Source of the DNA: Candidatus Poribacteria bacterium
Lineage (GTDB): Bacteria > Poribacteria > WGA-4E > PCPOR2b
Assembly (NCBI GenBank): GCA_965215015.1
Contig: OZ244042.1
Coordinates: 10,768 to 74,767 of the forward strand
Direction: 5' to 3'
Length of the DNA stretch: 64,000 bases
The notes below the pieces were generated by a model. That model saw nothing but the letters and a program-made list of their open reading frames with translations, was not told where the DNA came from and did no database searches. The position numbers and the translations under genes are program-made. Below, in pieces: positions 4,813 through 64,000 of this stretch. Within the stretch, counting starts at the first letter, position 1; each line of letters opens with the position of its first letter.

Positions 4813-4842
4813 ACTTTTCAGTTGGAAAATTTACCCCAAATG

Positions 4843-7360: not shown

Positions 7361-8185
7361 ATGAGTGTGAGTAGTGCAAAGCTCATTGACCCACAGCTGG
7401 AAGCTGAGAAACTGCTAAGAATGCCGGTGACCACGGCTGAAATGCTGTTTCAAGGTTTCACAATAGATCAGCAACTGGAAGTCATCTCATCTATACGAGA
7501 CGCGAAGGCGCGAGAGGAGTTGTATTATCTTGTGCCAGACTGTACCGAGTTAATCCAGATGAGTCCAATGGAAGATGTCTTGCAAATCTTGGATACAAGG
7601 CTTGGTACGGGAACGGCGTCCGCCCTGCTGCCGTGTCTGTCGCCGGATCAGTTTGAAGAAATGATGGATTTCGTCTTGTGGCGTAACGGCAAGCTCGATG
7701 AAAAAACAATCGATTTATGGCTTTTTGAATTGTCTGAATGTGAGATAGATGAACTGGGAGAGATGCTCTCCCAAATTGATGTGGGCATTCTCGGTAGTTT
7801 GCTGCAGGGGCGCGTTGAAATGGACGAAGAATTTAAAGCACTGTTTATTGAGGAGGGACTGGTCGACCCGTCAACGCCGGGTATTGACTACTTAGATGAA
7901 CGGGCAAAGGCAATCATGGACGCAATCTGGGAAGCGGACGCAGATCTGTTCATTCGTGTACTGTATGAACTCTTTGGGCTAGATCGGGAAGATGAGTTGG
8001 GTGAAGAACTGTGGGGATCGCTTGACCGCGTGAAAGGGGAACAGGAAGAGCGAGTCAGGGAACGCGATAAAGCAGCTGGCATTGACATAATCGAAACAGA
8101 AATTCTCGAAAAGGTAGACCTCGACCAACTTGATTTAGAGGACAAGGAGGTGTCTACAGTTGACGAGGAATCAGAAGATATTTGA
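7361..8185 (+). CDS. Hypothetical highly acidic protein (first of an overlapping gene pair)
   Basis: 274-aa ORF with RBS gagggat upstream; very D/E-rich C-terminus; no recognisable catalytic motif. Confidence 0.55.
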   Translation: MSVSSAKLIDPQLEAEKLLRMPVTTAEMLFQGFTIDQQLEVISSIRDAKAREELYYLVPDCTELIQMSPMEDVLQILDTRLGTGTASALLPCLSPDQFEEMMDFVLWRNGKLDEKTIDLWLFELSECEIDELGEMLSQIDVGILGSLLQGRVEMDEEFKALFIEEGLVDPSTPGIDYLDERAKAIMDAIWEADADLFIRVLYELFGLDREDELGEELWGSLDRVKGEQEERVRERDKAAGIDIIETEILEKVDLDQLDLEDKEVSTVDEESEDI

Positions 8186-9098
8186 AGCTGACGCGCTGAC
8201 CCATTACGATAGTCGGCTGTTTCTCGCCCAAACACTTGAACATGGACAAAAGATGGGGCGAATTTCACCCGCAAATCTGGACAAAATTCATCAAGATATT
8301 GCCTCCCTCGTTCACAAGTTGATTGAGATCAAAGTGGAAGATCTCTCCTCGCGCGCGGAGGTTCGAGGACAGATTCAAGAAGCGTTTACCTTGACAAGTT
8401 TGGGGCTAGAGTACGGTTGTGCAGGAGCACTCGATAAATCGGTTCGTCTGCTGAACAGCAACCGACTGATTAAGTTCTTTCAAATCGGCAATACGCTCGT
8501 TGATAAGTTGGTGGAACATTCCCGAAATATACTTGAAAAAGCCGTCCTCATCTCACCGGCGATGCGAGCTGTCGAGCCAGAGACGATTCCCGCTTACAAT
8601 GAATGGGAAAGCGATTTTCTGGAATCAATTATCGAGCGGAAACTCGCGATTGATGCCGCACAGATTTCACTTCATCAGCTATCCGCCAATCCCCGATCCT
8701 TGACGAGCCTTGCCGATGTCAACATCGCCAATCAACAGCTAGACTATATCAACCTCCGATTCAGCTACCTCTACGCATTACCGCAAGAGAAAATTTTCGC
8801 CATTGACTATCCGCCGGACACCGATTGCGATACCGTCCGCCGAATCACGATTGCACTGATGGTGAATTTAGTCCTATATCGCGAGATTGATTTCCACCTA
8901 GATGAAGAAGATTTGGACAATTTTCGCAATATCGCCTATGATATAGAAAGCTGCACTGTCAAAAAGACATCTCAAGACCTATTACTTGGTTGGATTCGAG
9001 GTTATATGGATTTGACAGGTCAACCGGAGGAAGTCAAAAAATACGCGGTCGAATACTGGAGATATTGCTTGTCTGTTTTTAAGGATGTGGTTAGGTAA
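8160..9098 (+). CDS. Hypothetical alpha-helical protein (second of overlapping pair)
   Basis: 312-aa ORF overlapping the upstream gene by 26 nt (translational coupling); no recognisable motif. Confidence 0.55.
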   Translation: MTRNQKIFEADALTHYDSRLFLAQTLEHGQKMGRISPANLDKIHQDIASLVHKLIEIKVEDLSSRAEVRGQIQEAFTLTSLGLEYGCAGALDKSVRLLNSNRLIKFFQIGNTLVDKLVEHSRNILEKAVLISPAMRAVEPETIPAYNEWESDFLESIIERKLAIDAAQISLHQLSANPRSLTSLADVNIANQQLDYINLRFSYLYALPQEKIFAIDYPPDTDCDTVRRITIALMVNLVLYREIDFHLDEEDLDNFRNIAYDIESCTVKKTSQDLLLGWIRGYMDLTGQPEEVKKYAVEYWRYCLSVFKDVVR

Positions 9099-9346: not shown

Positions 9347-9391
9347 ATAGGAGTTACGCACTTGAGTTTGTAGTCGCGCAATTCAACCGCC
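9347..9391 (+). repeat. Module X intergenic repeat, copy 1
   Basis: ataggagttacgcacttgagtttgtagtcgcgcaattcaacc; shares the 5' tatgaatag lead with copy 5. Confidence 0.7.
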
Positions 9392-13819: not shown

Positions 13820-16800
13820 GTGGATATGCCAAACGTAAATTCCTATCAATCCCTTGATGAAACCATTTCCAAAAATGCCACCATCCTCGCTGGTCAACTC
13901 AACAGAGCCGCTGCTTCTACGTCGAAAGAAGAAGAAATCCGTATTGCAGCTGAGAGAGAACTCGCCTTCATCCAACGCGAAGCGGGTATTGAACTGAACG
14001 GAAAGCATGAATTCACAATCGGTACGGGCAGAGCTGACTCTGTTTATGACTGTATCATCATTGAATATAAGAACCCTGCCGGTGCGGATAAACTTTCTGC
14101 CCGAAGCGAGGAATCCGGGAATCAGCAGGTTGTTAAACAACTCAAAAGACGCTTTTACGATATGCGAACTGAGTTCGGGCAGCCGCTTAACACCATGTTT
14201 GGTGTGGGGTGCGATGGCAACTATTTTATTTTTGTCCGCTTTCGAGATGATAAATGGGAAATTCAAGATACAGTCGAAGTCAATCCCTATAGCACCGAGC
14301 GTTTTCTATGGGCATTATTTAACTTAGGGACAAAAGGGAAAGCGTTCTCACCGGAGTATTTAGCGGCTGACTTCGGTGCTGATGCCAGGCTCGCTCAAGA
14401 TGGCATTCGTGCCCTCTATGATACTATCTGTACCACGGCAGACCCAAAAAGCCAGACCTTCTTTCAGCAGTGGAAAATCCTGTTTGGTGAGGTGTGCGGA
14501 TACGATGTCAATACTCCTTCAGACAAAATGGAAAAATTGGGTGAGGCCTACGGTGTTTATGGCACCCTCAGACCGGCGGAACTGCTCTTTGCTTTCCATA
14601 CCTATTACGCTTTGTTTATGAAGTTCTTGGCAGCCGAAATCGTAACGTTTTTCCACAACTTGCCGACTCCGCTTCAAAAAATTGTCCAAGCAGAGACCTC
14701 CAACAAACTTAAACAGGAAATGGAAGATTTAGAAGCGGGGAGCCTTTTCCGTCATTTGAACATTACTAACTTTCTCGAAGACGACCTTTTCGCTTGGTAC
14801 ACAACGGCTTGGTGTAACCCTGTTGAGAAACTCATCCGGGATATGAGCGCGAAACTTGACGACTATAACCCCGGAACGTTGTCCGAAGACCCCGCCGGCA
14901 GCCGTGACTTACTCAAGAAACTGTATCAACAACTTTTCCCTCAGACGGTTCGACACGATCTCGGAGAATATTACACCCCCGATTGGCTAGCAGAGCATGT
15001 CCTTAACAAGTTGGAATACACCGGCGACCCGGAAAAACGCATACTTGACCCCGCGTGTGGTTCTGGCACCTTCCTGGTGACTGTGATAAACCGTATCCGC
15101 AAGTGGTACGATGACAATCGTGAACGCTGCCCGTATAGCGAAAGCGAGCTATGCCGAAAGATTCTCCAGAATACCATCGGCTTTGATTTGAACCCCCTTG
15201 CGGTTATGGCTGCCCGCACAAACTATCTCATCGCTATCCGAGACCTGATCAGCCATGTGGGAAGCGTAGAAATTCCCGTTTATCTCTGCGATTCCATCAT
15301 GACGCCATCGGAGTACAGCGGACTGATACTGGGAGGAAGGCTTGGCGATGTTCGGAAACTCCAAACTAGTGCCGCGGGGTTCCTTGTTCCTACCGAAATC
15401 GCAACAAGTCATGATGACTTGGCGAAGTATACCGAAAAATTAGAATTTTGCATTCGTAATAGCTACTCGCCCGAAGAATTCATCGAACAGTGTCGTGATG
15501 AATCCCTTCCTGTTACCGTTGAAAACTTCCACATAGATCTTTATAACACTTTGGTGAAACTTGACAGGGAGAATAAGAACGGTGTCTGGGCACGGATTAT
15601 CAAAAACAGTTTTGCACCATTGTTCATTGACCCGGTAGATTATGTCGCAGGAAATCCGCCGTGGGTGAATTGGGAACATCTGCCAACCGCCTACCGGGAT
15701 TCGATGGCTCCGCTGTGGCAGCAGTATGATCTATTTCGTCATAAAGGAATCAGAGCGCGGCTTGGGGGTGCGAAGGACGACCTTTCAGTTCTAATGACAT
15801 ACGTTGCACATGATGCCTACTTAAAAGAAGAAGGGAGACTCGGTTTTGTAATCACACAGACTGTTTTCAAAACCAAAGGAGGAGGAGAGGGATTCAGAGG
15901 TTTTACTTACCAAAAAGGGGGCAAGAACATTTCTCTGAAAGTTCTCTCTGTTGACGATATGAGCGATTTGCAGCCCTTTGAAGGCACTACAAATCGCACA
16001 GCCGTTTTCTTATGTGAAAAAACAGCGAAGCCTTTCGACTATCCGGCACCCTACATTCTTTGGAAAAAAACGAGAAAAGGACGGATTGATCAAGATGCGA
16101 CACTTGCGGAGGTGCGGGCAGAAACGCTGCAGCACCAATTGGGTGCGATTCCTGTGGACAAGAATGATTTAACATCGCCGTGGCTGACGATGCCGGAAGC
16201 GGCTTTGTCTGGAATCCAAAAGGCTATCGGTAGAAGTGATTACAAGGCTCATGCTGGCATTACTACATGGCTAAATGGTGTCTATTGGATTCGCATTTTA
16301 GCGTATTTACCCAATGGCGAACTGCTCATCGAAAACCGCCATGATGTAGGTAAAAAAAAGGTGAAACGCGTCCAAGTAAGCATTGAACCCGATCTAGTCT
16401 ACCCCCTCCTTCGCGGGCGAGATGTGAAGCATTGGCAAGCGGAACCGTCAACTGCTGTCATCCTTGCAAATCGGACAGATAAATTAGCGGGTATCCCTGA
16501 AGTTGAGATGAAACGCCAGTACCCAAGAACCTATGCCTACTTCAAGTTATTTGAAGAGCCGCTTCGGCAGCGTTCTGGTTACCGGAAATTTTTCAAACCG
16601 ACTGACCCATTTTGGTCAATGTATAACGTTGGACCCTATACGCTGGCACCTTGGAAGGTATTGTGGGCTGAGGTTGGACACAAAGTACAAGCAGGTGTTT
16701 ACAATCCTATTTTAGACGAGTTTAATCGCTTAGAAAAAACACCAATTCCTGATCATACTGTTATTGCTATTTCTTGTGAACGCGGAAAATCGGAAGCATA

Positions 16801-30392: not shown

Positions 30393-30450
30393 TTAGGAGT
30401 TACGCCCTTGAGTGTGTAGTAATGCCATTCAACCCGCGTCAAGAGGATAA
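30393..30450 (+). repeat. Module X intergenic repeat, copy 2 (diverged)
   Basis: ttaggagttacgcccttgagtgtgtagtaatgccattcaacccgcgtc; followed by hairpin ggtatacgccgtatgcc and G-rich palindromes. Confidence 0.65.
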
Positions 30451-30480
30451 ATTGATCGACAGTAGTCGGTATACGCCGTA

Positions 30481-30592
30481 TGCCGTACCCCCCTTCCCCT
30501 GCAAGCAGGGGATGGGGCGTAAGTGAGGAGAAATAGACTCAATGAGTCTGTCTCCCCCTGCTTGCGGGGGGACTAAGGGGGGTCTTAGGGGA
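30481..30592. repeat. G/C-rich hairpin repeats (variant copies)
   Basis: ccccccttcccctgcaagcaggggatgggg and tctccccctgcttgcggggggactaaggggggtc, flanking the palindrome gactcaatgagtc. Confidence 0.7.
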
Positions 30593-30647
30593 TAAATCGC
30601 TGAACTACAAGGCTTCGGGTCAACTGCGTAAGGCCTAACAATTTTGA

Positions 30648-33638: not shown

Positions 33639-33744
33639 GCACCGGTTAGGCAAGCGAGAATAAGTCACCCCTGCAATTGGATTAAACAGGTACTCGCTCA
33701 AAGCATCCAATAGAAGGTTTTATTTGGGTCAATTGGAGAAAATC

Positions 33745-33846
33745 TGACGAAAGAAATGAAACAGGAACCTTTCCTGGCGAATCGGAGAACGGGAAGCCGG
33801 TTCGATCGCTTTCTCGTTTTCTAACTCTCCCGTTTTCTTTTTTTTG
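33745..33846 (+). repeat. Partial module Z copy (3' half with terminator-like T-runs)
   Basis: aaatgaaacaggaacctttcctggcgaatcggagaacgggaagccggttcgatcgctttctcgttttct...cccgttttctttttttt aligns to the 3' part of Z. Confidence 0.5.
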
Positions 33847-33966
33847 CGTTCCCCTTCCCCCTGCTTGCGGGGGGATTGAGGGGGGTCCCTTCCCTCCCCC
33901 TGCTTGCGGGAGGACTGAGGGGGGTGCCTTCCCTCCCCCTGCTCGCGGGGGGACTGAGGGGGGTGT
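33847..33966 (+). repeat. Three tandem copies of a ~39-bp G/C-rich hairpin repeat
   Basis: ccttccctccccctgcttgcggggggactgaggggggtg x3, with the first and third copies slightly variant. Confidence 0.85.
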
Positions 33967-34104
33967 CCCCGCGTTTTATTAAAAGCCAGTAACTACTTAT
34001 TGCCACAAAAAATACTGCGTAACGAGTAATGCGTCAGAAGATCGTTACTATTACTTACGCATCACGGATTATGCATCCACTACGACTGCATCTGGAGTGC
34101 GTAA

Positions 34105-39248: not shown

Positions 39249-39483
39249 CCCTACATTTGGTTAATTGCTATAGGGGCAACCCTTGTAGTTATCCTGCCGT
39301 AGGTCAATTTTCCAAAATCGACAATGCCTAGACTCTAGCGCGAAAGTTCGGCTAATTGAGCCAAGATTGTAGTGGGGCAGGCCGGGTATTTTGTCGAGAT
39401 ATGAACCTCGACCGACCTGCTGTGCTAGTATTTTCCACGATTTGCGTTATATCACACCCATGTGTGATTGAAATGTCGAACTG

Positions 39484-40401
39484 TCATTTTCCGTATTTGA
39501 ACCGTGCAATCGCGCCCTGCTCTACTAATTCTGCGCGGGCGTAATGCGCGGGCATCTGAGGCGATTTCCATCGCCCGGCAACCTGCATATTCACAACAGA
39601 CGCCCCGGCTTGGGCAAGCGAGACAGCAGAACCGATACGAAGGGAGTGTCCAGAAATCTTGCCTTCCACACCCGCCGCGCGTGCCCTACGCTTGATAACC
39701 TTCCTTACACCATCAATCGTTAGCCTGCCCCCAGTTATGTTATCACCCCGACGAATCCACCGAAAGAGTGGACCATCAGTGATATCCCCCGATTCACAAT
39801 ACCGCTTTATCGCCTCCCGCGTGGGATCCCCAATATACAGCGTCACACCGAGGACGCCCGCCGTACCCGGGTGGGTCTTTGACTGATAAACCCTCAACGC
39901 ACTATCAACATCCTCTACATCTACCGCGACCGCTTCACTAATGCGTAACAGACAGTCACTCATCAGTCGAATCAGGGCCGAATCTCTCAGTCCAGCAACG
40001 GTTTCCTCCGCTTCGGCAAGCGCACAGATTCTCTCTACTTCATCCCACGTTATGCCATCCATCTGTCCTCGGCCTCTGCCTTTGCCTTTACGTCGAATGC
40101 CGGCGAGTGCCTTTTCCGTAATCTCAAAGGAGAGCTCCTTTGCCCCCACGCTGTGATTCTTCACCATCCATTTGACTGCAGCAACGATTTTACTGATGGT
40201 CGATGGCGACCTTCCGTTTTGATACAACTCTGTGATATAGTTTGCGAGTAGGTTATCGCTCAGGGAATGTCCATCCAACCAAATTTCCAACTGTTGCATC
40301 GCGAGACGATACGTCTCGACGGTGCTCGGTGCAACGCTCGCTTTGACTAATTCCTCCGTTTCGTCGCTGATAACGACCTGCTTCCAAGCTGATGCATTCA
40401 T
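39484..40401 (-). CDS. Tyrosine site-specific recombinase/integrase (XerC/D-like size)
   Basis: C-terminal catalytic signature ...GHSLRIGSAVSLAQAG...VAGRWKSPQMPAHYAR (R..H.LR...GRW.S...Y). Confidence 0.85.
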   Translation of the reverse strand: MNASAWKQVVISDETEELVKASVAPSTVETYRLAMQQLEIWLDGHSLSDNLLANYITELYQNGRSPSTISKIVAAVKWMVKNHSVGAKELSFEITEKALAGIRRKGKGRGRGQMDGITWDEVERICALAEAEETVAGLRDSALIRLMSDCLLRISEAVAVDVEDVDSALRVYQSKTHPGTAGVLGVTLYIGDPTREAIKRYCESGDITDGPLFRWIRRGDNITGGRLTIDGVRKVIKRRARAAGVEGKISGHSLRIGSAVSLAQAGASVVNMQVAGRWKSPQMPAHYARAELVEQGAIARFKYGK

Positions 40402-40448
40402 GATTATCCCTCCATGACTAAGTTCCTAATCTCTCTGATAGTTCTATA

Positions 40449-40735
40449 GAATCCTGATTCTGACAAGTTACACCTCAGCCTCCAAAATCATCGCCGCATT
40501 CTGTCTGAATCGGGATTTACTGGATTTTAGGATTCACAGGATTGACTCTATCCATTGCCATTGGCTATCCTGAAAATCATTCCATCTTGAGAATCCTGAT
40601 TCTGACAAGTTACACCTCAACCTCCAAAATCATCGCGACATTTGTCTGAATCGGGATTTACTGGATTTTAGGATTCACAGGATTGACTCTATCCATTGCC
40701 ATTGGCTATCCTGAAAATCCTTCCATCTTGAGAAT
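40449..40735 (+). repeat. Two tandem copies of a 142-bp unit with four GGATT iterons each, upstream of the integrase gene
   Basis: Units 40449-40590 and 40591-40732 are about 95% identical. Each contains cGGGATTtactGGATTttaGGATTcacaGGATTgact plus an inverted AATCC. The array is bracketed by the 8-bp direct repeat TTCTATAG (40442-40449 and 40741-40748). Confidence 0.85.
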
Positions 40736-41000
40736 AGCATTTCTATAGCGTCTTATCTGTTTCTGAAGCGAATCCTCTAACGGAATGCCAACGCATTCCC
40801 TAAAACTCATGCTTTGGAGATAACGATAAGAACCGCTTTTTGGTTGATCCACTATATTTATTGTGTATAAGTAGTTACTAGCTTTTAACAAAACACAAGC
40901 GAGCAAAGACATTGTTCAAATTTTAGGAAAACGCCAGATCATATAGGGAGAAGGTTATCACACCTTTATGTGGTTTAGGGCACGCGACTCGTGCCGGCTC

Positions 41001-41121
41001 CTTTATGAGCCCCCCTCAGTTAGTTTTCGGTCATGGGATCTGCTTATGCCAGTTGTCCAGGCCGTCTTTTATCCGTGTCCTCCGTCAATCGGTGCTTATC
41101 CGTGATTCAGACAATAATATA
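41001..41121. repeat. Two degenerate right-end remnants of the MITE-like element
   Basis: ctttatgagcccccctcagttagtt (41001-41025) and cttatccgtgattcagacaataatat (41096-41121). Confidence 0.4.
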
Positions 41122-41377
41122 GGAGAATTAAAGGACCCTATTTTTACCGCTTTTTCGCTTGATTGGTGTTATTAATCTTGATATAATATCCACAACCGAA
41201 CACTTTAGAATACATAGCAGCCAATATAAGAAGGCTGCTGTTAAGAAATTGTGCAACAGACCGTGAGCTTTCAAGAAAAAACTCGGGCTCTCTTCGCGCC
41301 ATGTACTCTCTTTAAGCCTTACGCAGCTGATACCAAGCAAAGGCCTCAGAAAAACTATCTATAAGGAGACACTCCCT

Positions 41378-44300
41378 ATGTTTAAGCATCATTTCATTTC
41401 CGATTCGATGGGAATTTGCAAACAACGGCAGCACCTCATCACACTTATTAGTCTATTGATGTGCATCGTAGGTTATCAAAATGTATACCCCCAACAACAG
41501 ATTGCCCAAGATGCCTACGCTATTTTTCAACAGAGCTGCCTCATCTGCCATGGACCCGACGGTGCCTATCGAGAGACACTCCTAATGGAACACAACTCAC
41601 TCATCGAAAACGGGACAGTGGTCCCCGGAAACCCCAATGCCTCCGAACTGTATAACCGGCTCCTGACGACTGAGATAGCCAAACGGATGCCCCTTGGACA
41701 ACCCCGGCTATCCACTCAAGCGATTGCCACCATCCGAAACTGGATATTCGCTGGCGCACCCGATTGGGCGGCAACCCCCGCAGCCGATAGACGCTTTATC
41801 TCTCCCGGTGAAATACTCAATACCATCGAGACTCACGTCATGTCGCTGGCACCGTTTGACCGTGCCTTTGCCCGGTACTTCACAATGACACACCTCTATA
41901 ACGCAGGTGAGACCACGCGAGCTCTTGACAGCTATCGTAACGGCCTCTCGAAACTGGTCAATAGCCTCTCATGGGGGAGTACCGTCACCAACCCCCAACC
42001 CATTGACCGACAAGGCACCATCCTCTACATTGACCTGCGACACTACGAGTGGGATCGCAATGATGGGTGGGGGCAGATAGAAGCGGCATATCCCTATCAC
42101 ATCGGGTTTGATGCACCGACACAGACCGCGCTACGGGCCCAACTGACCCGGTTACAGACGGCGATGAAGTCTGATATACCATCGGTTCATGTCGACTGGT
42201 TTATAGCACAAGCCTCTTTACCTCCACTCTACCATGATTTACTCTCTCTCCCCTTAACGGATAAAGAGTTAGAGACCCGATTAGAAGTCGATGTTGTCCG
42301 TAACCTGCAAAATGCACCGGGGGTGCGTGTCTGGCGGGCCGGCACCAACAATTCAGGTGTCTCCAATCACAACCGAGTGATAGAACGCCACACCTCTCGC
42401 TATGGTGCCTATTGGAAAAGTTACGACTTTGGGGGGAGTGTGGGTACACAGAACATCTTCACCCATCCCCTGTCATTCACCCATGATGGTGGTGAGGTTA
42501 TCTTCAACCTACCCAACGGGTTACAGGGATACTACCTTGCCAATGGGGCCGGTTTTCGCCTAAATGAGGCACCGATAAACATTGTTTCTAATCCCGCAGC
42601 GAGTGATCCGACGGTGCGGAATGGTTTATCCTGTTTCGGTTGCCACACAGAGGGTATGAAGCCATTTGAGGACCAAGTCCGTTCGGTGATAGCGAATAAT
42701 ACCGCTCCCACTTATGACAAAGCGCAGGCGTTGCGGCTCTACGTGGCAAAATCAGAGATGAACGCGCTTGTGGGTGAAGATATGAATAGGTACAGGGTTG
42801 CCCTTGAAGCGACGGGCGGGGCGTTTGATGACATTGAACCCATCTCCCGTTTCCACGAGGCATTTCAGGAGGAGGTAGACACAGCACACGCCGCAGCCGC
42901 GGTTGGGTTAGAGCCGGAGGCGTTCTTGGAAAAGATACGTGAGAATATAGGGCTACAGGATATCGGCTTGCTGGTGTTAGACAGTGAGGCTGGAAGTATG
43001 AAACGGGACACCTGGACATCGAGTTTTCGGGATATAGTTTTTGCGTTGGATTTCCCGGAGCGTTTCACCCCTCCCACGGCGATAACCCCGCCGGTAGTGA
43101 CACCGGGTACGGTTGTGTATATCCCGGACCCAAACCTGCGTGCGGCAATAGCGGAGGCACTGGACAAGAGCCCCAATGCTCCGATTACTGCCGAGGAGAT
43201 GGCAAAGTTGAGCAGGCTCGATGTGCCGCGCAGGGGCATCCGTGATTTGACAGGGCTGCAGTATGCAACCAATCTGACACGGTTAAATATTAACGACAAT
43301 CAGGTCTCCGACATCTCACCGCTAGCGGGCTTGATCGAACTGCGCGAGCTCCGGATTCACGACAACGACAACCTCTTGTCCGATATATCGCCTGTGAGAG
43401 GCTTAACCAATCTCACTTATCTTCAGTTTGACCGCTCTACAGTCTCTGATATATCTCCCGTGAGAGGCTTAACCAATCTTACTTACCTTGAGTTTGACAA
43501 CACTTTGGTATCCGATATATCTCCCGTGAGAGGCTTAACAAATCTCATTACCCTTAAGTTTGGTCACACTTCGGTATCCGATATATCTCCGGTGAGGAAC
43601 TTAACAAATCTCACTCGCCTTGAGTTTGAGCACACTTTGGTATCTAACCTATTGCCAATTGCGAGATTAATCAATCTGGAGCGGTTACATTTGGGAAGTG
43701 ATAATATCTCCGACCTGTCGCCGGTTTCAGGATTAATCAACCTCAAACACATTAGTGGTGGTTGGGGCAGCTCTATATCCGATTTATCGCCCTTGGCAGG
43801 CTTAACAAAACTGGAGCAGATACATATGCACGGCGGAAAGATATCAGATCTCACGCCTTTAGCAGGCCTAACCGGCTTGAAGGAACTGCATTTTCGGGAC
43901 AACGACATATCGAATCTCGCCCCCCTCGCAGGGTTAACACAGCTAACTCGTCTGCAGCTCGCGAACAACAATATATCGGATCTCTCCCCCCTTGCAGGGT
44001 TAACCAACTTGAAATGGCTAGTGATCCATGACAACGAGATTTCTGACATTTCTCCGCTGCAGGGACTCCGCGAGAATATAACGACGTTCGTTTGGCATGA
44101 CAACCCGGGATTCCCAAAAGTGGGACCGTCAATCGAGGGGCCGTGGTTATGGGTTGTATTACCGGAAACAAGACCGAGTAGCAGTAAGGATTTACTGTCA
44201 GAAGTGAGCGGGGGGGCGGTAACAGAGACGGAGATTGCTACCCATGGGGCAACCGTGGGAAGTTCTGTAGGTGATGATGTATGGACCTACCGCACACTCC

Positions 44301-45649
44301 CGCCTACGGGCTGGGCTAATGTTCGCCAAATGCTTGACGGCCACATCGATGGTGCCAGCCTCTACGGCACGGTGTCCTTGCATTCACCACGACAACAGGA
44401 CACAACACTATACGTTGGCAGTCATAACGATTTTAAGGTCTGGCTCAACGGGACTTTGATTTACGAGTCTCTCCGTTACCATGCGAGTTTCGGTTACACG
44501 GATTCTCTGCCGGTCACGCTGAAGCAGGGAAGAAATGTGCTATTGGTAGCCGTTAGAGCCCAGTATAATGCCTTTTTTGGGTTTGAACCCGGCACCGAAT
44601 ATACTGTGGCGAACCCCGGTGTCGGATACACTTTTTCCAAGACACCCATTCATATAGGCGATACCTTTACCCTTAATCTTCGCGCCGAAACGGTCTCCGA
44701 CTTGGCAGGCTGGCAGTTCGATATTGCCTTTGACCCGGCTGCCCTCGAAGCCATTGACGTCAGCGAAGGCAATTTCCTGAAGGCAGATGGGGGCTCCACC
44801 TTCTTTCAGGGTAGGAGCATCGATAACGCGACAGGTAAAATCTCAGGACTCAGTGCGGCGCGATTGGCTGCCCAAGGTGTAAATGGCACCGGCACCCTGC
44901 TGCAGGTCAGGTTCAGGGCGAAATCTGCCGGTGAAACAGAGTTGGTGCTGCAAAACTTTCAGTTTGGCTCCATCACCGGCGATACTATCCCTGCAGGACC
45001 GCGTCAAATTCGCATCGCTGTCGAGGGACGCCTGGCGACCGGGGACGTGAATCGAGATGGTGTGGTCAGCATTTTGGATCTCATTCTCGTCGCACAGCAG
45101 TTGGGGAAAAAGGTGGCCCCCAACTCACCGGTAGATGTCAACCGAGATGGTGTTGTCAGCATCCTTGACCTTATCGGCATCGCGCAGGGGATCGGGAACA
45201 CCACAGCACCTGCCGCCCCGGCACCCTCCTCACTGGAGGTAAATCCTGAGACCATAGCGGCATGGATTGCACAGGCACAGGTGGCAGATGACGGTTCCCT
45301 TGCCTTCAAACAGGGTATCGCAAATCTCCAAAACCTGTTAGCCGCGTTGATTCCTGAAGAGACTGCGTTGTTGGCAAACTATCCGAATCCGTTTAACCCG
45401 GAGACGTGGATACCGTATCAGTTGGCAACCCCTGCGGAAGTTACATTGACCATCTATGATAGGAACGGGGAGGTCGTTCGCCGGTTAGCCGTGGGACATC
45501 GAGGCGCGGGTATGTATCAGAGTCAAAACCGTGCGCTATATTGGGACGGACGGAATCAGCTGGGTGAACCTGTCGCCAGTGGCCTCTATTTTTACACACT
45601 GACAGCAGGCACATTCACGGGGACGCGGCGGATGTTGATACTCAAATAA
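41378..45649 (+). CDS. Giant secreted multidomain protein: dihaem cytochrome c region + leucine-rich repeats + cohesin-like + dockerin-like + T9SS C-terminal sorting domain
   Basis: CxxCH haem motifs at about nt 41536 (SCLICHG) and about nt 42633 (CFGCHTEG). About 15 22-aa LRRs (LTNLTYLxFDxTxVSDISPVRG). Cohesin-like WQFDIAFDPAALEAIDV. Two dockerin repeats DVNRDGVVSILDL. C-terminal NYPNPFNPETWIPYQL...WDGRNQLGEPVASGLYFYTL...RMLILK. Confidence 0.85.
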   Translation: MFKHHFISDSMGICKQRQHLITLISLLMCIVGYQNVYPQQQIAQDAYAIFQQSCLICHGPDGAYRETLLMEHNSLIENGTVVPGNPNASELYNRLLTTEIAKRMPLGQPRLSTQAIATIRNWIFAGAPDWAATPAADRRFISPGEILNTIETHVMSLAPFDRAFARYFTMTHLYNAGETTRALDSYRNGLSKLVNSLSWGSTVTNPQPIDRQGTILYIDLRHYEWDRNDGWGQIEAAYPYHIGFDAPTQTALRAQLTRLQTAMKSDIPSVHVDWFIAQASLPPLYHDLLSLPLTDKELETRLEVDVVRNLQNAPGVRVWRAGTNNSGVSNHNRVIERHTSRYGAYWKSYDFGGSVGTQNIFTHPLSFTHDGGEVIFNLPNGLQGYYLANGAGFRLNEAPINIVSNPAASDPTVRNGLSCFGCHTEGMKPFEDQVRSVIANNTAPTYDKAQALRLYVAKSEMNALVGEDMNRYRVALEATGGAFDDIEPISRFHEAFQEEVDTAHAAAAVGLEPEAFLEKIRENIGLQDIGLLVLDSEAGSMKRDTWTSSFRDIVFALDFPERFTPPTAITPPVVTPGTVVYIPDPNLRAAIAEALDKSPNAPITAEEMAKLSRLDVPRRGIRDLTGLQYATNLTRLNINDNQVSDISPLAGLIELRELRIHDNDNLLSDISPVRGLTNLTYLQFDRSTVSDISPVRGLTNLTYLEFDNTLVSDISPVRGLTNLITLKFGHTSVSDISPVRNLTNLTRLEFEHTLVSNLLPIARLINLERLHLGSDNISDLSPVSGLINLKHISGGWGSSISDLSPLAGLTKLEQIHMHGGKISDLTPLAGLTGLKELHFRDNDISNLAPLAGLTQLTRLQLANNNISDLSPLAGLTNLKWLVIHDNEISDISPLQGLRENITTFVWHDNPGFPKVGPSIEGPWLWVVLPETRPSSSKDLLSEVSGGAVTETEIATHGATVGSSVGDDVWTYRTLPPTGWANVRQMLDGHIDGASLYGTVSLHSPRQQDTTLYVGSHNDFKVWLNGTLIYESLRYHASFGYTDSLPVTLKQGRNVLLVAVRAQYNAFFGFEPGTEYTVANPGVGYTFSKTPIHIGDTFTLNLRAETVSDLAGWQFDIAFDPAALEAIDVSEGNFLKADGGSTFFQGRSIDNATGKISGLSAARLAAQGVNGTGTLLQVRFRAKSAGETELVLQNFQFGSITGDTIPAGPRQIRIAVEGRLATGDVNRDGVVSILDLILVAQQLGKKVAPNSPVDVNRDGVVSILDLIGIAQGIGNTTAPAAPAPSSLEVNPETIAAWIAQAQVADDGSLAFKQGIANLQNLLAALIPEETALLANYPNPFNPETWIPYQLATPAEVTLTIYDRNGEVVRRLAVGHRGAGMYQSQNRALYWDGRNQLGEPVASGLYFYTLTAGTFTGTRRMLILK
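43300..44060 (+). repeat. Intragenic ~66-bp tandem DNA repeats encoding the LRR units of the giant protein
   Basis: Consecutive units such as gatatatctcccgtgagaggcttaaccaatctcacttatcttcagtttgacc are repeated with high nucleotide identity. Confidence 0.8.
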
Positions 45650-45740
45650 ACCAGATGGGCTTGTTTCACTTTAGCCATACGGAAATTGCTGTGGAACTAT
45701 TGTATGTAGGTCGATTTGCCAAAATCGACAATCCCTATCG

Positions 45741-45890
45741 GGGATTCACGGTTTCATCGGAAGAAGAACCAAGAAACGAAACAGCAACCTTCCCTGACGA
45801 AAGGAAAGACGGGAAGCCAGTTCTCTCGCTTTCTTTTTTTCCGCTCCCCTTCCCCCTGCTTGCGGGGGGACTGAGGGGGGTCCGTCTTAT
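45741..45890 (+). ncRNA. Module Z repeat (candidate ~150-nt structured RNA ending in an intrinsic terminator), copy 1
   Basis: ggggattcacggtttcatcgg...gacgggaagccagttctc + T-run, then G-rich palindrome; repeated in tandem at 46004-46165. Confidence 0.45.
45811..45840 (+). terminator. Intrinsic terminator-like hairpin + U-tract (inside module Z copy 1)
   Basis: gggaagccagttctc + tcgctttcttttttt, 160 nt downstream of the giant gene's stop. Confidence 0.5.
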
Positions 45891-45899
45891 AGAATACCA

Positions 45900-46165
45900 G
45901 AACCCAATGAGTGGATAGGAGCTTTTCTCTGAATTTAACGCAAAATCGCCCCCCCGCAAGGAGGAGGGGGCACCAGTCCCGATGCTGTTGCCCTCTAAAG
46001 GGAATGCTTACCGCATCGGGGATTCACGGTTTCATCGGGAGAAGACCCAAGAAACGAAACCGGAACCTGCCCTGACGAAAGGAAAGACGGGAAGCCGGTT
46101 CCCTCGTTTTCTTTTTTTTCGTTCCCCTTCCCCCTGCTTGCGGGGGGACTGAGGGGGGTCCGTCT
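45900..46165 (+). ncRNA. Module Y (45900-46000) + module Z copy 2 (46004-46165) composite
   Basis: Y: caatgagtggataggagcttttctctgaatttaacgcaaa, also at 63838. Z: as copy 1, with terminator gggaagccggttccc + T8. Confidence 0.45.
46089..46120 (+). terminator. Intrinsic terminator-like hairpin + U-tract (inside module Z copy 2)
   Basis: gggaagccggttccc + tcgttttcttttttttcg. Confidence 0.5.
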
Positions 46166-46255
46166 TTATTTCTGTTGGTCGTCGTGCTATAATGAAAGTA
46201 TTGAAATTTGGTTTCTAAACCGATTTGATGCCCCAAACGCAGAAAGGGAATTAGA

Positions 46256-46663
46256 ATGGCTATCTTTTTACACACGCGCGTTAGAGTGAGCAATCTCGAT
46301 CAATCAATCAAATGGTATTGCGACCACTTAGGTTTTGTTGTAAAAAGTCGAAGCGATAAATCTCCAGCAGGCAACCAGATCGTCCATCTGGAACTTCCGG
46401 GTAACGTACCGACGCTGGAGTTGACCTATTCGCCCGACTATAAACTAAATGTTCCAGAAGATCTGATGCACTTTGCTATCAGTGTGCCGAATCTCGTTGA
46501 CTGTTGTGACACATTGGAGAAGGCGGGACTTGAAATTTGGCCCGATGGCTGGCGAGAACAGTTCACATCGGGAGGCATGAAGATGGCATTCATCACCGAT
46601 CCAGACGGTTACGAAGTTGAACTGCTGGAAGATATCGATGAGATTCTGGCAGAGTTGGAATAG
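46256..46663 (+). CDS. VOC/glyoxalase-family protein
   Basis: 135 aa; MAIFLHTRVRVSNLDQSIKWYCDHLGF is a typical glyoxalase/bleomycin-resistance fold N-terminus. Confidence 0.8.
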   Translation: MAIFLHTRVRVSNLDQSIKWYCDHLGFVVKSRSDKSPAGNQIVHLELPGNVPTLELTYSPDYKLNVPEDLMHFAISVPNLVDCCDTLEKAGLEIWPDGWREQFTSGGMKMAFITDPDGYEVELLEDIDEILAELE

Positions 46664-48268: not shown

Positions 48269-48423
48269 AGTCAGTTTCGTTTTCCCTCTACACCTCTATC
48301 GAACCTTGCTGACAAGACTCCATGCCTTTAGGCTAGGGACAGCTGGTTAGGTATCACCTAACATTATAGTCAGTCGAAGTGCGTTGATATATAAAAACTG
48401 GTGAATTTATAAGTAAAATAGAG

Positions 48424-48505
48424 TTAGGAGCTCCACACTTGAGTTTGTAGTAACGCCATTCGACCCACGTCTTTAAGGGAGTCAGCATACAGAGTATGCC
48501 ATCCC
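48424..48505 (+). repeat. Module X intergenic repeat, copy 4, plus hairpin
   Basis: ttaggagctccacacttgagtttgtagtaacgccattcgacccacgtctttaaggga, then gcatacAGAgtatgc. Confidence 0.75.
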
Positions 48506-48990
48506 CCCCTTCCCCCGCTAAATACCCTGTGGGTTGTCCGTCAGTTCCTGGCTCATTGAGTCTACCCCCCTCAATCCCCCCGAAAGCAGGGGGAGACAGA
48601 ACCACCCCCCTCAATCCCCCCGCAAGCAGGGGGAACGTATCGGTAGTTGGCACCTCTTTGCCCCTCCCCGCTTGCGGGGAGCTCTGTTCCGCCACGCTTA
48701 CGGCCTCTTCCCCTCCCTGCTTGCGGGGAGGGGCTAGGGGTGGGGTTCTTAGGGGGACACCCCACCGGGTTGCGGCCCCGCTTGCGCCCTTCCCCCTGCT
48801 AAACACCCTGTAGGTTGTCCGTCAGTTCCTGGCTCATTGAGTCTACCCCCCTCAATCCCCCCGAAAGCAGGGCGAAGAGATACCGTATCGGTATTTGGCA
48901 CTTCTTTTCCCATCACCCCTTGCAGCCTCTTCCCCTCCCTGCTCGCGGGGAGGGGCTAGGGGTGGGGTTCTTGCGGTTTATGAATCTCGA
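48496..48990. repeat. Complex array of G/C-rich hairpin repeats, including a ~190-bp unit duplicated at 48510-48700 and 48790-48980
   Basis: Repeated ccccctcaatccccccg(a/c)aagcaggggg and cctcttcccctccctgcttgcggggaggggctaggggtggggttctt. The sub-motif ccctgtgggttgtccgtcagttcctggctcattgagtcta also occurs at 56247-56290. Confidence 0.8.
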
Positions 48991-49038
48991 CTTACAGCGT
49001 TTGCAGAATCGGCGACAGTAAAATGCCAACACGGCATA

Positions 49039-56223: not shown

Positions 56224-56307
56224 CGCAAGTTGCCACTTAAAGCCCAAATGCCCGGTGGGTTGGCCGCCAATTCTTGGCTCATTGAGCCTAGAACAGTTTA
56301 GTGAGGG

Positions 56308-62900: not shown

Positions 62901-62980
62901 ATAGGAGTTACGCACTTGGGTTTGTAATATCGCAATTCAACCCACGTCTTTAAGGGAGTCGGCATACGGCTTATACCGAT
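62901..62980 (+). repeat. Module X intergenic repeat, copy 5, plus hairpin
   Basis: ataggagttacgcacttgggtttgtaatatcgcaattcaacccacgtctttaaggga, then tcggcatacggcttataccgat. Confidence 0.75.
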
Positions 62981-62982
62981 TC

Positions 62983-63021
62983 CCCCCTTCCCCCTGCTTG
63001 CGGGGGGACTGAGGGGGGCGA
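62983..63021 (+). repeat. G/C-rich hairpin repeat
   Basis: ccccccttccccctgcttgcggggggactgaggggggcg. Confidence 0.8.
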
Positions 63022-63135
63022 GGATACCATGACTATGGCGCCATAATCCTGGCTCAACCAACCATAACCATGGCGCGACCTTTTTTGGTGTTGGCTTTGA
63101 ACGTTCAACTGCGTAAATCCTAAATAGAAATAATT

Positions 63136-63813: not shown

Positions 63814-63837
63814 CCGCGTTCTGCTAATCTAAATCGC

Positions 63838-64000
63838 AATGAGTAGATAGGGGCTTTTCTCTGAATTTAACGCAAAGACGCAGCGTCGCAAGTCCCGATT
63901 CCGTTGCCCTCCAATCGGAACGCCACCCCGTTTACCCCCTAACCCCCTCCCAAGTGGGGAGAGGAAGGAAATGCTTACCGCATCATGGATTCACAGTTTC
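63838..64000 (+). repeat. Module Y + G-rich element + start of module Z (truncated by window end)
   Basis: caatgagtagataggggcttttctctgaatttaacgcaaag ... atgcttaccgcatcatggattcacagtttc. Confidence 0.5.

What the first reader, a model, noticed from the sequence alone, without database searches (positions are those of the whole stretch)
45725..46175. Tandem Y-Z repeats: candidate small structured RNAs with intrinsic terminators downstream of the giant T9SS protein
Module Z (about 150 nt, ggggattcacggtttcatcgg ... gacgggaagccRgttcYc + U-tract, then a G-rich palindrome) occurs twice in tandem (45741-45890 and 46004-46165), separated by module Y (caatgagtggataggagcttttctctgaatttaacgcaaa). A partial Z is at 33745-33846, and a Y + Z start recurs at 63838-64000. 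Each Z ends in a textbook rho-independent terminator, so these behave like small transcription units or terminator cassettes that have multiplied. They may be an undescribed sRNA family, or a riboregulatory leader of the downstream glyoxalase gene.
Basis: seen in the sequence. Interest (0 to 1): 0.6.

Follow-up and report, generated by a model that had tools for sequence, protein, structure and literature searches.

The report
Two adjacent copies of a small transposon
The repeated "Y" and "Z" blocks are pieces of one short non-coding mobile element (a MITE) that has inserted several times between genes of an uncultured sponge-symbiont bacterium (Candidatus Poribacteria). They are not a small-RNA gene and not a control region for the neighbouring glyoxalase gene.

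Summary
The repeats are real. Z1 (45737-45888) and Z2 (46015-46166) are 93% identical. A partial Z lies at 33746, and a Y plus the start of a Z lie at 63837-64000.

Y and Z are not free-standing units. They are consecutive parts of one element of about 276 bp with no gene of its own:
- Order: 5' inverted repeat, Y, Z, 3' inverted repeat.
- Two complete copies, recovered from strains of the same species, are each flanked by an 8-bp direct repeat (ATTTAAAT, ATTTTTAA).
- The ends form an imperfect inverted repeat.
- The element is absent from the matching sites in other Poribacteria. One of these has only 30 nt between the same two genes.

This is the signature of a MITE. The G-rich palindrome is a separate REP-like repeat nested inside it.

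At 45.7-46.2 kb two truncated copies lie head to tail. They end at 46167, upstream of a glyoxalase promoter (TGcTATAAT, 46185-46193) that is conserved in nine of ten related contigs lacking Y/Z. That refutes the leader idea.

Rfam gave no match, covariation was negligible, and only one copy, in two sister strains, has a promoter-like site.

Each Z carries a weak hairpin followed by T7-8, so it may terminate transcription incidentally.

Verdict: a new MITE family, biologically ordinary.

The parts
45706..45736 (+). Fragment of another repeat family: the hairpin GTAGGTCGATTTGCCAAAATCGAC plus AATCCCT. It abuts the truncated 5' end of copy A.
   Evidence: 91% match to window 39299-39330. 92-96% matches in other Poribacteria (L039, L041, L045). 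In L039 the hairpin is the left end of an element of about 85 nt with GTAGGTTGA/TCAACCTAC ends.
45737..45888 (+). Copy A of the MITE, truncated at its 5' end: Z1 core plus a nested G-module. In this strain its 3' inverted repeat has been lost in a 54-nt deletion.
   Evidence: 93% identical to 46015-46166. In strains L001 and L002 the 3' inverted repeat GCGTTTTGTTAAAAGCCAATAACTACTTA follows directly.
45811..45840 (+). Z1 terminator-like block: hairpin GGGAA-GCCAG-TTCTC (45811-45825), then TCGCTTTC and T7 (45834-45840).
   Evidence: The window scan does not flag it because it has only 2 G-C pairs. The L001 version, with TTCCC, is flagged.
45845..45881 (+). G-module: a G/C-rich imperfect palindrome resembling a REP element, nested in copy A.
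   Evidence: Family D1 and inverted pairs I3-I12. Hairpin energy -24 to -30 kcal/mol. Absent from copy E (L047), where the element is otherwise complete.
45889..45904 (+). Spacer between the two copies (ATAGAATACCAGAACC). It is what remains of the flank that, in L001/L002, supplies the TAGAAT of a promoter-like site.
   Evidence: Strain alignment. TTGACA-N18-TAGAAT, 11 of 12 matches, in L001 only.
45905..46167 (+). Copy B of the MITE, truncated at its 3' end: 5' inverted repeat, Y, Z2 core and a nested G-module. It has no 3' inverted repeat.
   Evidence: The 5' end CAATGAGTGGATAGGAGCTTTT matches the 5' ends of copies D and E. Homology with other species resumes at 46168.
45905..45926 (+). 5' terminal inverted repeat of copy B.
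   Evidence: Matches the reverse complement of the 3' ends of the other copies (GTAGTTACTGGCTTTT versus GTRGATAGGRGCTTTT).
45947..45972 (.). C/G-rich hairpin inside Y (CGCCCCCCCGCAAGGAGGAGGGGGCA). This is a variable slot: copy E has a reversed G-module here and copy D has none.
   Evidence: On the minus strand it scores as the best terminator-like site in the region (9 pairs, 7 of them G-C).
46015..46119 (+). Z2 core: purine-rich arm, hairpin GGGAA-GCCGG-TTCCC (46089-46103), then TCGTTTTC and T8 (46112-46119).
46124..46159 (+). G-module nested in copy B.
46168..46255 (+). Native glyoxalase promoter and 5' untranslated region, with an extended -10 element TGcTATAAT at 46185-46193. This is not part of the repeat.
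   Evidence: 73-83% identical directly upstream of the glyoxalase start codon in 9 of 10 orthologous contigs from other Poribacteria; L038 has different sequence there.
33746..34006 (+). Copy C, truncated at its 5' end: 3' part of Z (T8 at 33838-33845), three tandem G-modules (33849-33965) and the 3' inverted repeat (33971-34006).
   Evidence: The left junction lies at the start codon of a PhyH gene that is present in L046.
63827..63834 (+). Left copy of the 8-bp target-site duplication of copy D. It reads ATCTAAAT here and ATTTAAAT in strain L029.
63837..64000 (+). Copy D: 5' inverted repeat, Y, a nested C-rich hairpin and the start of Z at 63982. It runs off the end of the window.
   Evidence: The complete copy is seen in same-species strains at L029 1723-2121 and L030.
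40862..40894 (-). A lone 3' inverted repeat of the same element family, with no Y or Z attached.
   Evidence: Inverted pair I2 with 33973-34017. TIR search. Sequence read.

Best explanation
Y, Z and a third block (here called P, GCGTTTTATTAAAAGCCAGTAACTACTTA) are consecutive segments of one non-autonomous transposable element, a MITE.

Anatomy of the element:
- The basic form is about 276 bp and has no gene.
- Its two ends form an imperfect inverted repeat. The 5' end is GCAATGRGTAGATAGGGGCTTTT. The 3' end, read as reverse complement, is GAAATAAGTAGTTACTGGCTTTT.
- Insertion duplicates 8 bp of A/T-rich target.

How it spreads and changes:
- A transposase encoded elsewhere, not identified here, would recognise the ends and move it. 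This step is inferred.
- Copies then pick up nested insertions of a separate G/C-rich, REP-like palindrome.
- Copies are also truncated or rearranged by deletion and recombination.

The locus in question holds two copies head to tail. Copy A has lost its 5' part (Y). Copy B has lost its 3' end. They lie between the end of the large LRR/cohesin/dockerin gene and the glyoxalase gene's own promoter.

Inside Z, a purine-rich arm, a short hairpin, a pyrimidine-rich arm and a run of 7-8 T look like a weak intrinsic terminator on the + strand. There is a weaker one on the - strand. When a neighbouring gene is transcribed through the element, this block probably stops some transcripts, as a by-product rather than the reason the element exists. 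This last step is inferred, not shown.
For: Multi-copy and species-specific:
- There are 5 Z copies at 4 loci in about 92 kb of same-species DNA: the window plus L029/L047/L049.
- A profile search finds none in about 230 kb from other Poribacteria.

Target-site duplications in both complete copies:
- L029 1723-2121 is flanked by ATTTAAAT on both sides.
- L047 14601-14876 (minus strand) is flanked by ATTTTTAA on both sides.

Terminal inverted repeat:
- 16 of 21 positions match in the L047 copy; 1 of 1000 shuffles reaches that score.
- 14 of 20 match in the L029 copy; 88 of 1000 shuffles reach it.
- The same ends recur in five 3' copies and three 5' copies.
- The whole element folds with its ends paired.

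Empty site:
- Between the HAD and CoA-binding genes there are 30 nt in L036 and 458 nt in this species.
- In L031 the same gap is filled by a different element.

Non-coding:
- The open frame through Z shows 7 amino-acid-changing versus 3 silent differences between Z1 and Z2 (read by eye) and has no shared start codon.
- A search with all six translated frames found nothing.

Not an RNA leader:
- The conserved glyoxalase promoter lies downstream of copy B.

Terminator-like block:
- The T7-8 run and ACGGGAAGCC are kept in all five Z copies.
- The scan flags the hairpin plus T-tract.

Known precedent:
- A review of prokaryotic MITEs gives the criteria (under 500 bp, terminal inverted repeats, flanking direct repeats, A/T-rich intergenic targets).
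- It also notes elements with terminator-like motifs that insert into one another (PMC10969869).
Against: - No transposase gene or full-length insertion sequence with matching ends was found in any DNA I could fetch.
- The inverted repeat is imperfect, and on the L029 copy alone it is not significant.
- Only two complete copies could be examined, because the 5.94-Mb source contig was not retrievable.
- At all four loci the element points the same way as the gene just downstream. Pure random transposition does not predict that (about 0.06 by chance), so some selection or function tied to transcription is possible.
- The hairpin before the T-run is weak, and nothing shows that it terminates transcription.
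Confidence: 0.78

Rival explanations
1. Y-Z is a family of small RNA genes. Each copy would be a transcription unit of about 230 nt, with a promoter just upstream of Y and its own terminator at the T-run of Z. The flanking repeats would be incidental.
For: - In strains L001 and L002 a near-consensus promoter-like site (TTGACA-N18-TAGAAT, 11 of 12 matches) lies directly upstream of Y of copy B.
- The sequence just upstream of Y is A/T-rich, with TAnnnT-like hexamers, at all three Y copies.
- Every Z ends in a hairpin plus T7-8.
- MITE-derived sRNAs are known in Coxiella (PMC10969869).
Against: - The promoter-like site is missing in the window strain (54-nt deletion) and at the other copies.
- No Rfam match.
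- Folding is no better than for shuffled sequence (z -0.2 to -1.7).
- The covariation term is -0.7 to -1.1 kcal/mol, and the predicted 5' structure changes with the set of sequences.
- Z1 in the window carries changes that break pairs predicted for Z2.
- The family is absent from all other Poribacteria sampled.
Confidence: 0.1
2. The blocks are functional terminator (or terminator-plus-promoter) cassettes kept by selection. They would spread mainly by recombination rather than transposition. Z plus the G-module would stop upstream transcription, and the P block would restart it for the next gene.
For: - At all four loci the element points the same way as the gene immediately downstream. This includes the minus-strand copy in a divergent intergenic region.
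- P is present where the element separates a gene from its former upstream promoter (CoA-binding gene, L047 gene). It is absent where the gene's native promoter lies downstream (glyoxalase).
- The T-run is retained in all copies.
- Copy C keeps an 11-pair alternative stem directly before its T8 run (worked out by hand from the sequence; the computed fold pairs a different arm).
Against: - The 8-bp flanking duplications and the inverted ends point to transposition.
- No consistent -35/-10 pair lies at a fixed distance from P (the sequences were compared by eye).
- The hairpin is weak (-9 to -11 kcal/mol).
- Terminator-like sites are only mildly enriched in this window overall: 30 found against 20 expected, and 27 against 18.
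- Four loci are too few to establish an orientation rule.
Confidence: 0.1
3. Y-Z is a cis-regulatory leader, such as a riboswitch or attenuator, of the downstream glyoxalase gene.
For: Its position upstream of the gene and in the same orientation, and a terminator-like hairpin that could in principle act as an attenuator.
Against: - The conserved glyoxalase promoter (TGcTATAAT, 46185-46193) lies downstream of Z2.
- Nine of ten orthologous contigs keep that promoter region, and none of the ten has Y or Z.
- Other copies sit next to unrelated genes.
Confidence: 0.01

Closest known systems
Prokaryotic MITEs in general (for example Correia elements of Neisseria, Chunjie of Geobacter, QMITE1/2 of Coxiella)
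   Same: - Under 500 bp with no gene.
- Imperfect terminal inverted repeats.
- Flanking target-site duplication.
- A/T-rich intergenic targets.
- Many copies, including truncated ones that have lost an end.
- Ends that can pair in a transcript.
(Criteria from PMC10969869; tested.)
   Different: - No sequence similarity to any of them was tested or found.
- The parent insertion sequence and transposase are unknown.
- The family is so far restricted to one Poribacteria species.
[quoted passage not shown]
   Same: - A short interspersed repeat that carries a terminator-like hairpin plus T-tract.
- It occurs in clusters in which different small repeats lie next to and inside one another (PMC10969869).
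   Different: - An unrelated organism.
- I did not compare the sequences.
- Whether SPRITE has inverted ends and duplications like those found here was not checked.
REP / BIME elements of enterobacteria (relevant to the nested G-module only)
   Same: - An imperfect G/C-rich palindrome of about 35 nt.
- Extragenic, with many copies in both orientations.
- Tandem clusters (three in a row at 33849-33965).
- Mixed with other motifs into mosaics.
   Different: - Association with a RAYT-type transposase could not be tested.
- The module also occurs inside other mobile elements.
- It is itself interrupted by another repeat inserted in its loop.
Intrinsic (rho-independent) terminators
   Same: A purine-rich tract, a stem-loop and a run of 7-8 T on the transcribed strand, kept in all five Z copies.
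   Different: - The stem adjoining the T-run has only 5-6 pairs and is weak.
- One copy lies where there is no upstream gene on the same strand.
- Termination has not been shown.

Membership tests
MITE (non-autonomous DNA transposon) | Short (typically under 500 bp) and without a transposase gene | tested here: met
   Complete copies are 276 bp (L047 14601-14876) and 399 bp with nested inserts (L029 1723-2121). There is no conserved reading frame (about 7 amino-acid-changing to 3 silent differences, read by eye). The six-frame protein search found nothing.
MITE (non-autonomous DNA transposon) | Terminal inverted repeats | tested here: met
   16 of 21 positions match in the L047 copy (1 of 1000 shuffles reaches that score). 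14 of 20 match in the L029 copy (88 of 1000). The same ends are found in three 5' copies and five 3' copies.
MITE (non-autonomous DNA transposon) | Flanking direct repeats (target-site duplication) | tested here: met
   ATTTAAAT flanks the L029 copy and ATTTTTAA flanks the L047 copy. Only two complete copies were available. Both lie outside the window, in strains of the same species.
MITE (non-autonomous DNA transposon) | Multiple dispersed copies, with sites that are empty in relatives | tested here: met
   5 Z copies at 4 loci in about 92 kb. The HAD/CoA-binding junction is 30 nt in L036 against 458 nt here. The element is absent from 10 glyoxalase loci of other Poribacteria.
MITE (non-autonomous DNA transposon) | A related autonomous insertion sequence with the same ends, whose transposase moves it | tested here: inconclusive
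   No matching ends occur next to any transposase gene in the fetched loci. The full genome could not be retrieved, so absence is not shown.
Small RNA gene / described RNA family | Match to a curated RNA family model | tested here: not met
   No match at gathering score in the whole window. Only chance-level hits (E of 5 or more) in 45600-46300.
Small RNA gene / described RNA family | Conserved secondary structure supported by compensatory changes | tested here: inconclusive
   The covariation term is -1.1 and -0.7 kcal/mol, and the predicted 5' helices differ between the two alignments. Only 4-5 independent copies were available.
Small RNA gene / described RNA family | Own promoter and a discrete transcript | not testable with these tools
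   A promoter-like site is seen only upstream of copy B in L001/L002, not in the window or at copy D. No expression data were available.
Cis-regulatory leader of the glyoxalase gene | Lies between the gene's promoter and its start codon, and is conserved with the gene | tested here: not met
   The conserved promoter region 46168-46255 lies downstream of Z2. Nine of ten orthologous contigs keep it, and none has Y or Z.
Intrinsic terminator | Stable G/C-rich stem-loop followed directly by a U-tract | tested here: inconclusive
   A T7-8 run is present in all copies, but the stem has only 5-6 pairs and -9 to -11 kcal/mol. Z2 is flagged by the scan and the window's Z1 is not.
Intrinsic terminator | Stops transcription in vivo at the 3' end of a gene | not testable with these tools
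   Three of four loci lie after a gene on the same strand. The L047 copy lies in a divergent intergenic region.
REP-like element (G-module only) | Short G/C-rich imperfect palindrome, extragenic, many copies, tandem arrays | tested here: met
   At least 11 copies in 64 kb, in both orientations, with three in tandem at 33849-33965. Hairpin energy -24 to -30 kcal/mol. Also present in other Poribacteria species.
REP-like element (G-module only) | Associated RAYT-type transposase in the genome | not testable with these tools

The most novel reading that the evidence does not exclude
The element could be a mobile unit of transcriptional punctuation. In this reading, its internal hairpin and T-run, together with the nested G/C hairpin, stop incoming transcription, and its 3' end restarts transcription for the next gene. 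Each insertion would then rewire an operon; for example, it would split the HAD/CoA-binding gene pair that is contiguous in a related species. The consistent orientation toward the downstream gene would be the mark of selection. Its transcripts might also yield a species-specific family of RNAs of about 230 nt.
Probability: 0.12. Interest if true: 0.45.

Novelty: new member of a known kind. Interest (0 to 1): 0.2.

Why it matters
- It removes a false lead. Neither an sRNA family nor a glyoxalase riboregulator is supported here.
- It documents that this Poribacteria genome carries several families of small mobile repeats nested in one another. About 27% of the intergenic DNA in the window is repeated within the window.
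- These repeats differ between strains and break short-read assemblies. They have separated genes that are adjacent in relatives.
- For people annotating genomes of uncultured sponge symbionts, recognising these elements avoids spurious gene and RNA calls. It also gives markers for strain typing.
- If the terminator-like block works, the element would also be one more case of a transposon that alters transcription of its neighbours.

Tried and rejected
1. **Genome scan.** The scan of genome contigs with the Z core pattern gave 23 single hits in unrelated organisms, all chance. The source genome is not in that collection.
2. **Metagenome scan.** One hit, inside a coding region, also chance.
3. 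**Other collections.** Two scans of viral contigs and one plasmid search found nothing.
4. **Six-frame protein search.** All six translated frames of Y plus Z were joined into one query, hoping to catch spurious gene calls over other copies. There were no hits.
5. **Exact look-ups of window proteins.** These failed for the HAD and GFO genes and for P0121 from the source contig. The source contig itself could not be fetched. I got around this by using cluster members from a sister strain.
6. **A 5' hairpin apparently shared with the 33.7 kb copy.** I first read one as conserved. I withdrew this after finding that the left part of that copy is the remnant of a PhyH ribosome-binding region.
7. 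**Orientation of the G-module.** I first thought it follows the direction of transcription (5 of 5 intergenic regions in the window). Copies in L038 and L039 lie the other way round, so I rejected this as a rule.
8. **The P block as a sigma-70 promoter.** No -35/-10 pair lies at a constant distance from it, so this is not supported.
9. **Integron attC sites.** Considered because a tyrosine recombinase gene lies nearby. The recombinase scores far below every family cut-off, and the flanking genes are syntenic housekeeping genes. Rejected.
10. **Parent insertion sequence.** I looked for one among transposase-bearing loci of relatives and found no matching ends.

Full report
**1. The observation**

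The region 45650-46255 lies between the stop codon of a 1423-aa protein and the start of a 135-aa glyoxalase/VOC protein. The large protein has LRR, cohesin, dockerin and FlgD_ig domains.

- Z1 (45737-45888) and Z2 (46015-46166) are 93.4% identical over 152 nt (E = 1.8e-62).
- A diverged Z lies at 33746-33888.
- Y plus the start of a Z recur at 63837-64000.

So the repeats are real. Three details needed correcting:
- The second Z begins at 46015.
- The G-rich palindrome at the end of each Z is an independent 35-nt module. It has at least 11 copies in the window, in both orientations and often on its own.
- The hairpin before the T-run has only 5 pairs.

**2. The organism and the available relatives**

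The glyoxalase falls in a 90%-identity cluster with a protein named 'VOC family protein [Candidatus Poribacteria bacterium]'. The gene content fits: sulfatases, cohesin/dockerin, LRR and Planctomycete cytochrome C domains.

The source is a 5.94-Mb contig that could not be retrieved. Both large DNA scans returned only chance hits.

I did obtain two sets of related DNA:
- Contigs of two sister strains: GCA_964348125.1 and ERZ21848999 (loci L001, L002, L029, L030, L047, L049).
- Syntenic loci from several other Poribacteria species (L027, L028, L031-L046).

**3. Not a known RNA, not coding, no convincing structure**

- Rfam gave nothing at gathering score in the whole window. In the region itself only chance-level hits appeared.
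- Single-sequence folds are no more stable than shuffled sequence (z -0.2 to -1.7).
- Two alignments of the Z copies gave consensus folds whose covariation term was only -1.1 and -0.7 kcal/mol. The 5' helices differed between the two alignments.
- A frame stays open through Z. However, Z1 and Z2 differ by 7 amino-acid-changing against 3 silent changes in it (my count by eye). It has no shared start codon.
- A six-frame protein search found nothing.

**4. Not the glyoxalase leader**

I fetched ten contigs from other Poribacteria that carry the orthologous glyoxalase.

- In nine of them, the roughly 85 nt directly before the start codon are conserved at 73-83% with window 46168-46255. L038 has different sequence there.
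- This region includes an extended -10 element, TGcTATAAT, at 46185-46193.
- Upstream of 46168 everything differs.
- None of the ten has Y or Z.

So Z2 ends where the native promoter begins. The other Z copies sit next to an aminotransferase, a CoA-binding protein and a hypothetical protein.

**5. What Y and Z are**

Sister-strain contigs gave the complete version of the copy that the window cuts off at 64000 (L029 1723-2121). They also gave a fifth copy on the minus strand (L047 14601-14876).

In both, the order is Y, Z, then a third block (P, GCGTTTTATTAAAAGCCAGTAACTACTTA). The P block also follows the 33.7 kb copy. In strains L001 and L002 it follows Z1.

Three features identify the whole as one mobile element:
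- **Flanking duplications.** Each complete copy is flanked by an 8-bp direct repeat: ATTTAAAT in one case, ATTTTTAA in the other.
- **Inverted ends.** The start of Y and the reverse complement of P form an imperfect terminal inverted repeat.
  - It matches at 16 of 21 positions in the L047 copy (1 of 1000 shuffles reaches this).
  - It matches at 14 of 20 in the L029 copy (88 of 1000).
  - The same ends recur in all three 5' copies and all five 3' copies.
  - The element folds with its ends paired.
- **Empty sites in relatives.** Between the HAD and CoA-binding genes, a related species has only 30 nt (TAA...AGGAGAACCAAATG). This species has 458 nt, and a third species has a different small element there.

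Profile and BLAST searches find Z only in this species: 5 copies at 4 loci in about 92 kb. They find none in about 230 kb from other Poribacteria.

These are the defining features of a MITE as listed in a recent review: under 500 bp, inverted ends, flanking direct repeats, A/T-rich intergenic targets (PMC10969869).

**6. Reading the locus in that light**

- **Copy A (45737-45888)** has lost Y. Its left edge joins a fragment of another repeat at the short motif ATCGGGGATTCA, which related repeats in other species also contain.
  - In L001 and L002, copy A still has its 3' end.
  - The window strain has a 54-nt deletion there.
- **Copy B (45905-46167)** has the 5' inverted repeat, Y and Z2, but no 3' end. 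It abuts the glyoxalase promoter.

Each copy carries a nested G-module. Y contains a slot where different C/G hairpins sit in different copies.

**7. The terminator-like block**

All five Z copies keep the following, despite 7-29% divergence elsewhere:
- ACGGGAAGCC;
- a short hairpin;
- a pyrimidine-rich tract;
- a T7-8 run.

Three of the six T>=7 runs on the + strand of the window are in Z.

The purine-rich arm upstream can pair with the pyrimidine-rich arm, giving several alternative long imperfect stems. The minus strand also shows a weaker hairpin-plus-T pattern.

The very stable G-module (-24 to -30 kcal/mol) follows directly.

My inference is that transcripts entering the element in the + orientation are partly terminated. 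Nothing here shows that this happens. Terminator-like sites in general are only mildly enriched in this window.

**8. Open points**

- At all four loci the element points toward the gene just downstream. This includes the copy in a divergent intergenic region. With four loci this could be chance (about 0.06).
- In L001 and L002, the 3' end of copy A together with its flank forms TTGACA-N18-TAGAAT just upstream of copy B. This is the only support for a dedicated Y-Z transcript, and the window strain lacks it.
- No parent transposase was found.

**9. Comparison with known systems, and verdict**

The element is a new MITE family. It resembles the pneumococcal SPRITE/BOX/RUP situation in two ways: it carries a terminator-like motif, and it lies in clusters of small repeats inserted into one another (PMC10969869).

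The G-module behaves like a REP element. I found no literature on such repeats in Poribacteria.

The finding is real but biologically ordinary. The sRNA reading is unsupported and the leader reading is refuted.

Noticed in passing
window 30394-30637 and 62902-63122; partial copies at 9348, 46769 and 48425; also L028 11617-11715 and 11836-11998, L040 ~3660-3825, L047 ~14885-15075: A second MITE family. Its ends are TAGGAGTTACGCA ... TGCGTAA(nn)CCTA, and it has 5-6 bp flanking duplications (ACAAT; AATAGA). It is about 220-240 bp long, often has a G-module inside, and is shared across several Poribacteria species.
   Followed up: partly
window 33849-33965, 30553, 62988, 46883(-), 48564(-), 48604(-), 48845(-): The G/C-rich 35-nt palindrome (CCCCTTCCCCCTGCTTGCGGGGGGACTGAGGGGGG) is a REP-like repeat in its own right. 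It occurs three times in tandem at 33.9 kb, inside other elements, and in other Poribacteria species (L038-L040).
   Followed up: partly
L029 1993-2064; window 48506-48594, 48787-48875, 56246-56290: Another repeat (TAAATACCCKGTGGGTTGTCCGTCAGTTCCTGGCTCATTGAGYCTA) sits exactly in the loop of a G-module, splitting it. This suggests an element that targets the hairpin loop.
   Followed up: no
window 39484-40401 (-) and 40402-46167: A Xer-like tyrosine recombinase gene is conserved next to a segment whose gene content differs in every species examined. Here it holds the LRR/cohesin/dockerin giant; elsewhere it holds cytochrome c peroxidase, transposases and others. The segment ends at the glyoxalase promoter, so this looks like a recombination hotspot or island.
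   Followed up: partly
window 44654-45646 (C-terminal 331 aa of the 1423-aa protein): The cohesin-dockerin-FlgD_ig C-terminal module has more than 6000 database relatives with E of 1e-5 or better. The best 120 are 57-81% identical, many on 5-7 Mb contigs. This is a very large paralogous family in Poribacteria.
   Followed up: no
window 40443-40735: A tandem duplication with a unit of about 141 nt (96-99% identity), in the divergent region between the recombinase gene and the giant gene.
   Followed up: no
window 33700-33746 compared with L046 1700-1745: A PhyH gene that lies between the sulfatase and aminotransferase genes in a related species is missing here. The breakpoint lies exactly at its start codon, and a truncated MITE copy takes its place.
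   Followed up: partly
window 48269-49038 compared with L001 4831-5585: This repeat-rich intergenic region differs between sister strains by 235 gapped alignment columns, while the flanking genes are 99-100% identical. The small repeats are therefore rearranging at strain level.
   Followed up: no
window 7361-8185 and 8160-9098: Two overlapping reading frames match the N-terminal and central parts of the same family (DUF6178). This is possibly one gene split by a frameshift.
   Followed up: no
window 1-4830 (-): An open reading frame of more than 1610 codons runs off the left end of the window.
   Followed up: no
L031 10693-10925: At the same HAD/CoA-binding junction, another species carries a third kind of small element. 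Its ends are a perfect 13-nt inverted repeat, TAACGCAAGTTGC ... GCAACTTGCGTTA. The same ends occur in L028.
   Followed up: no
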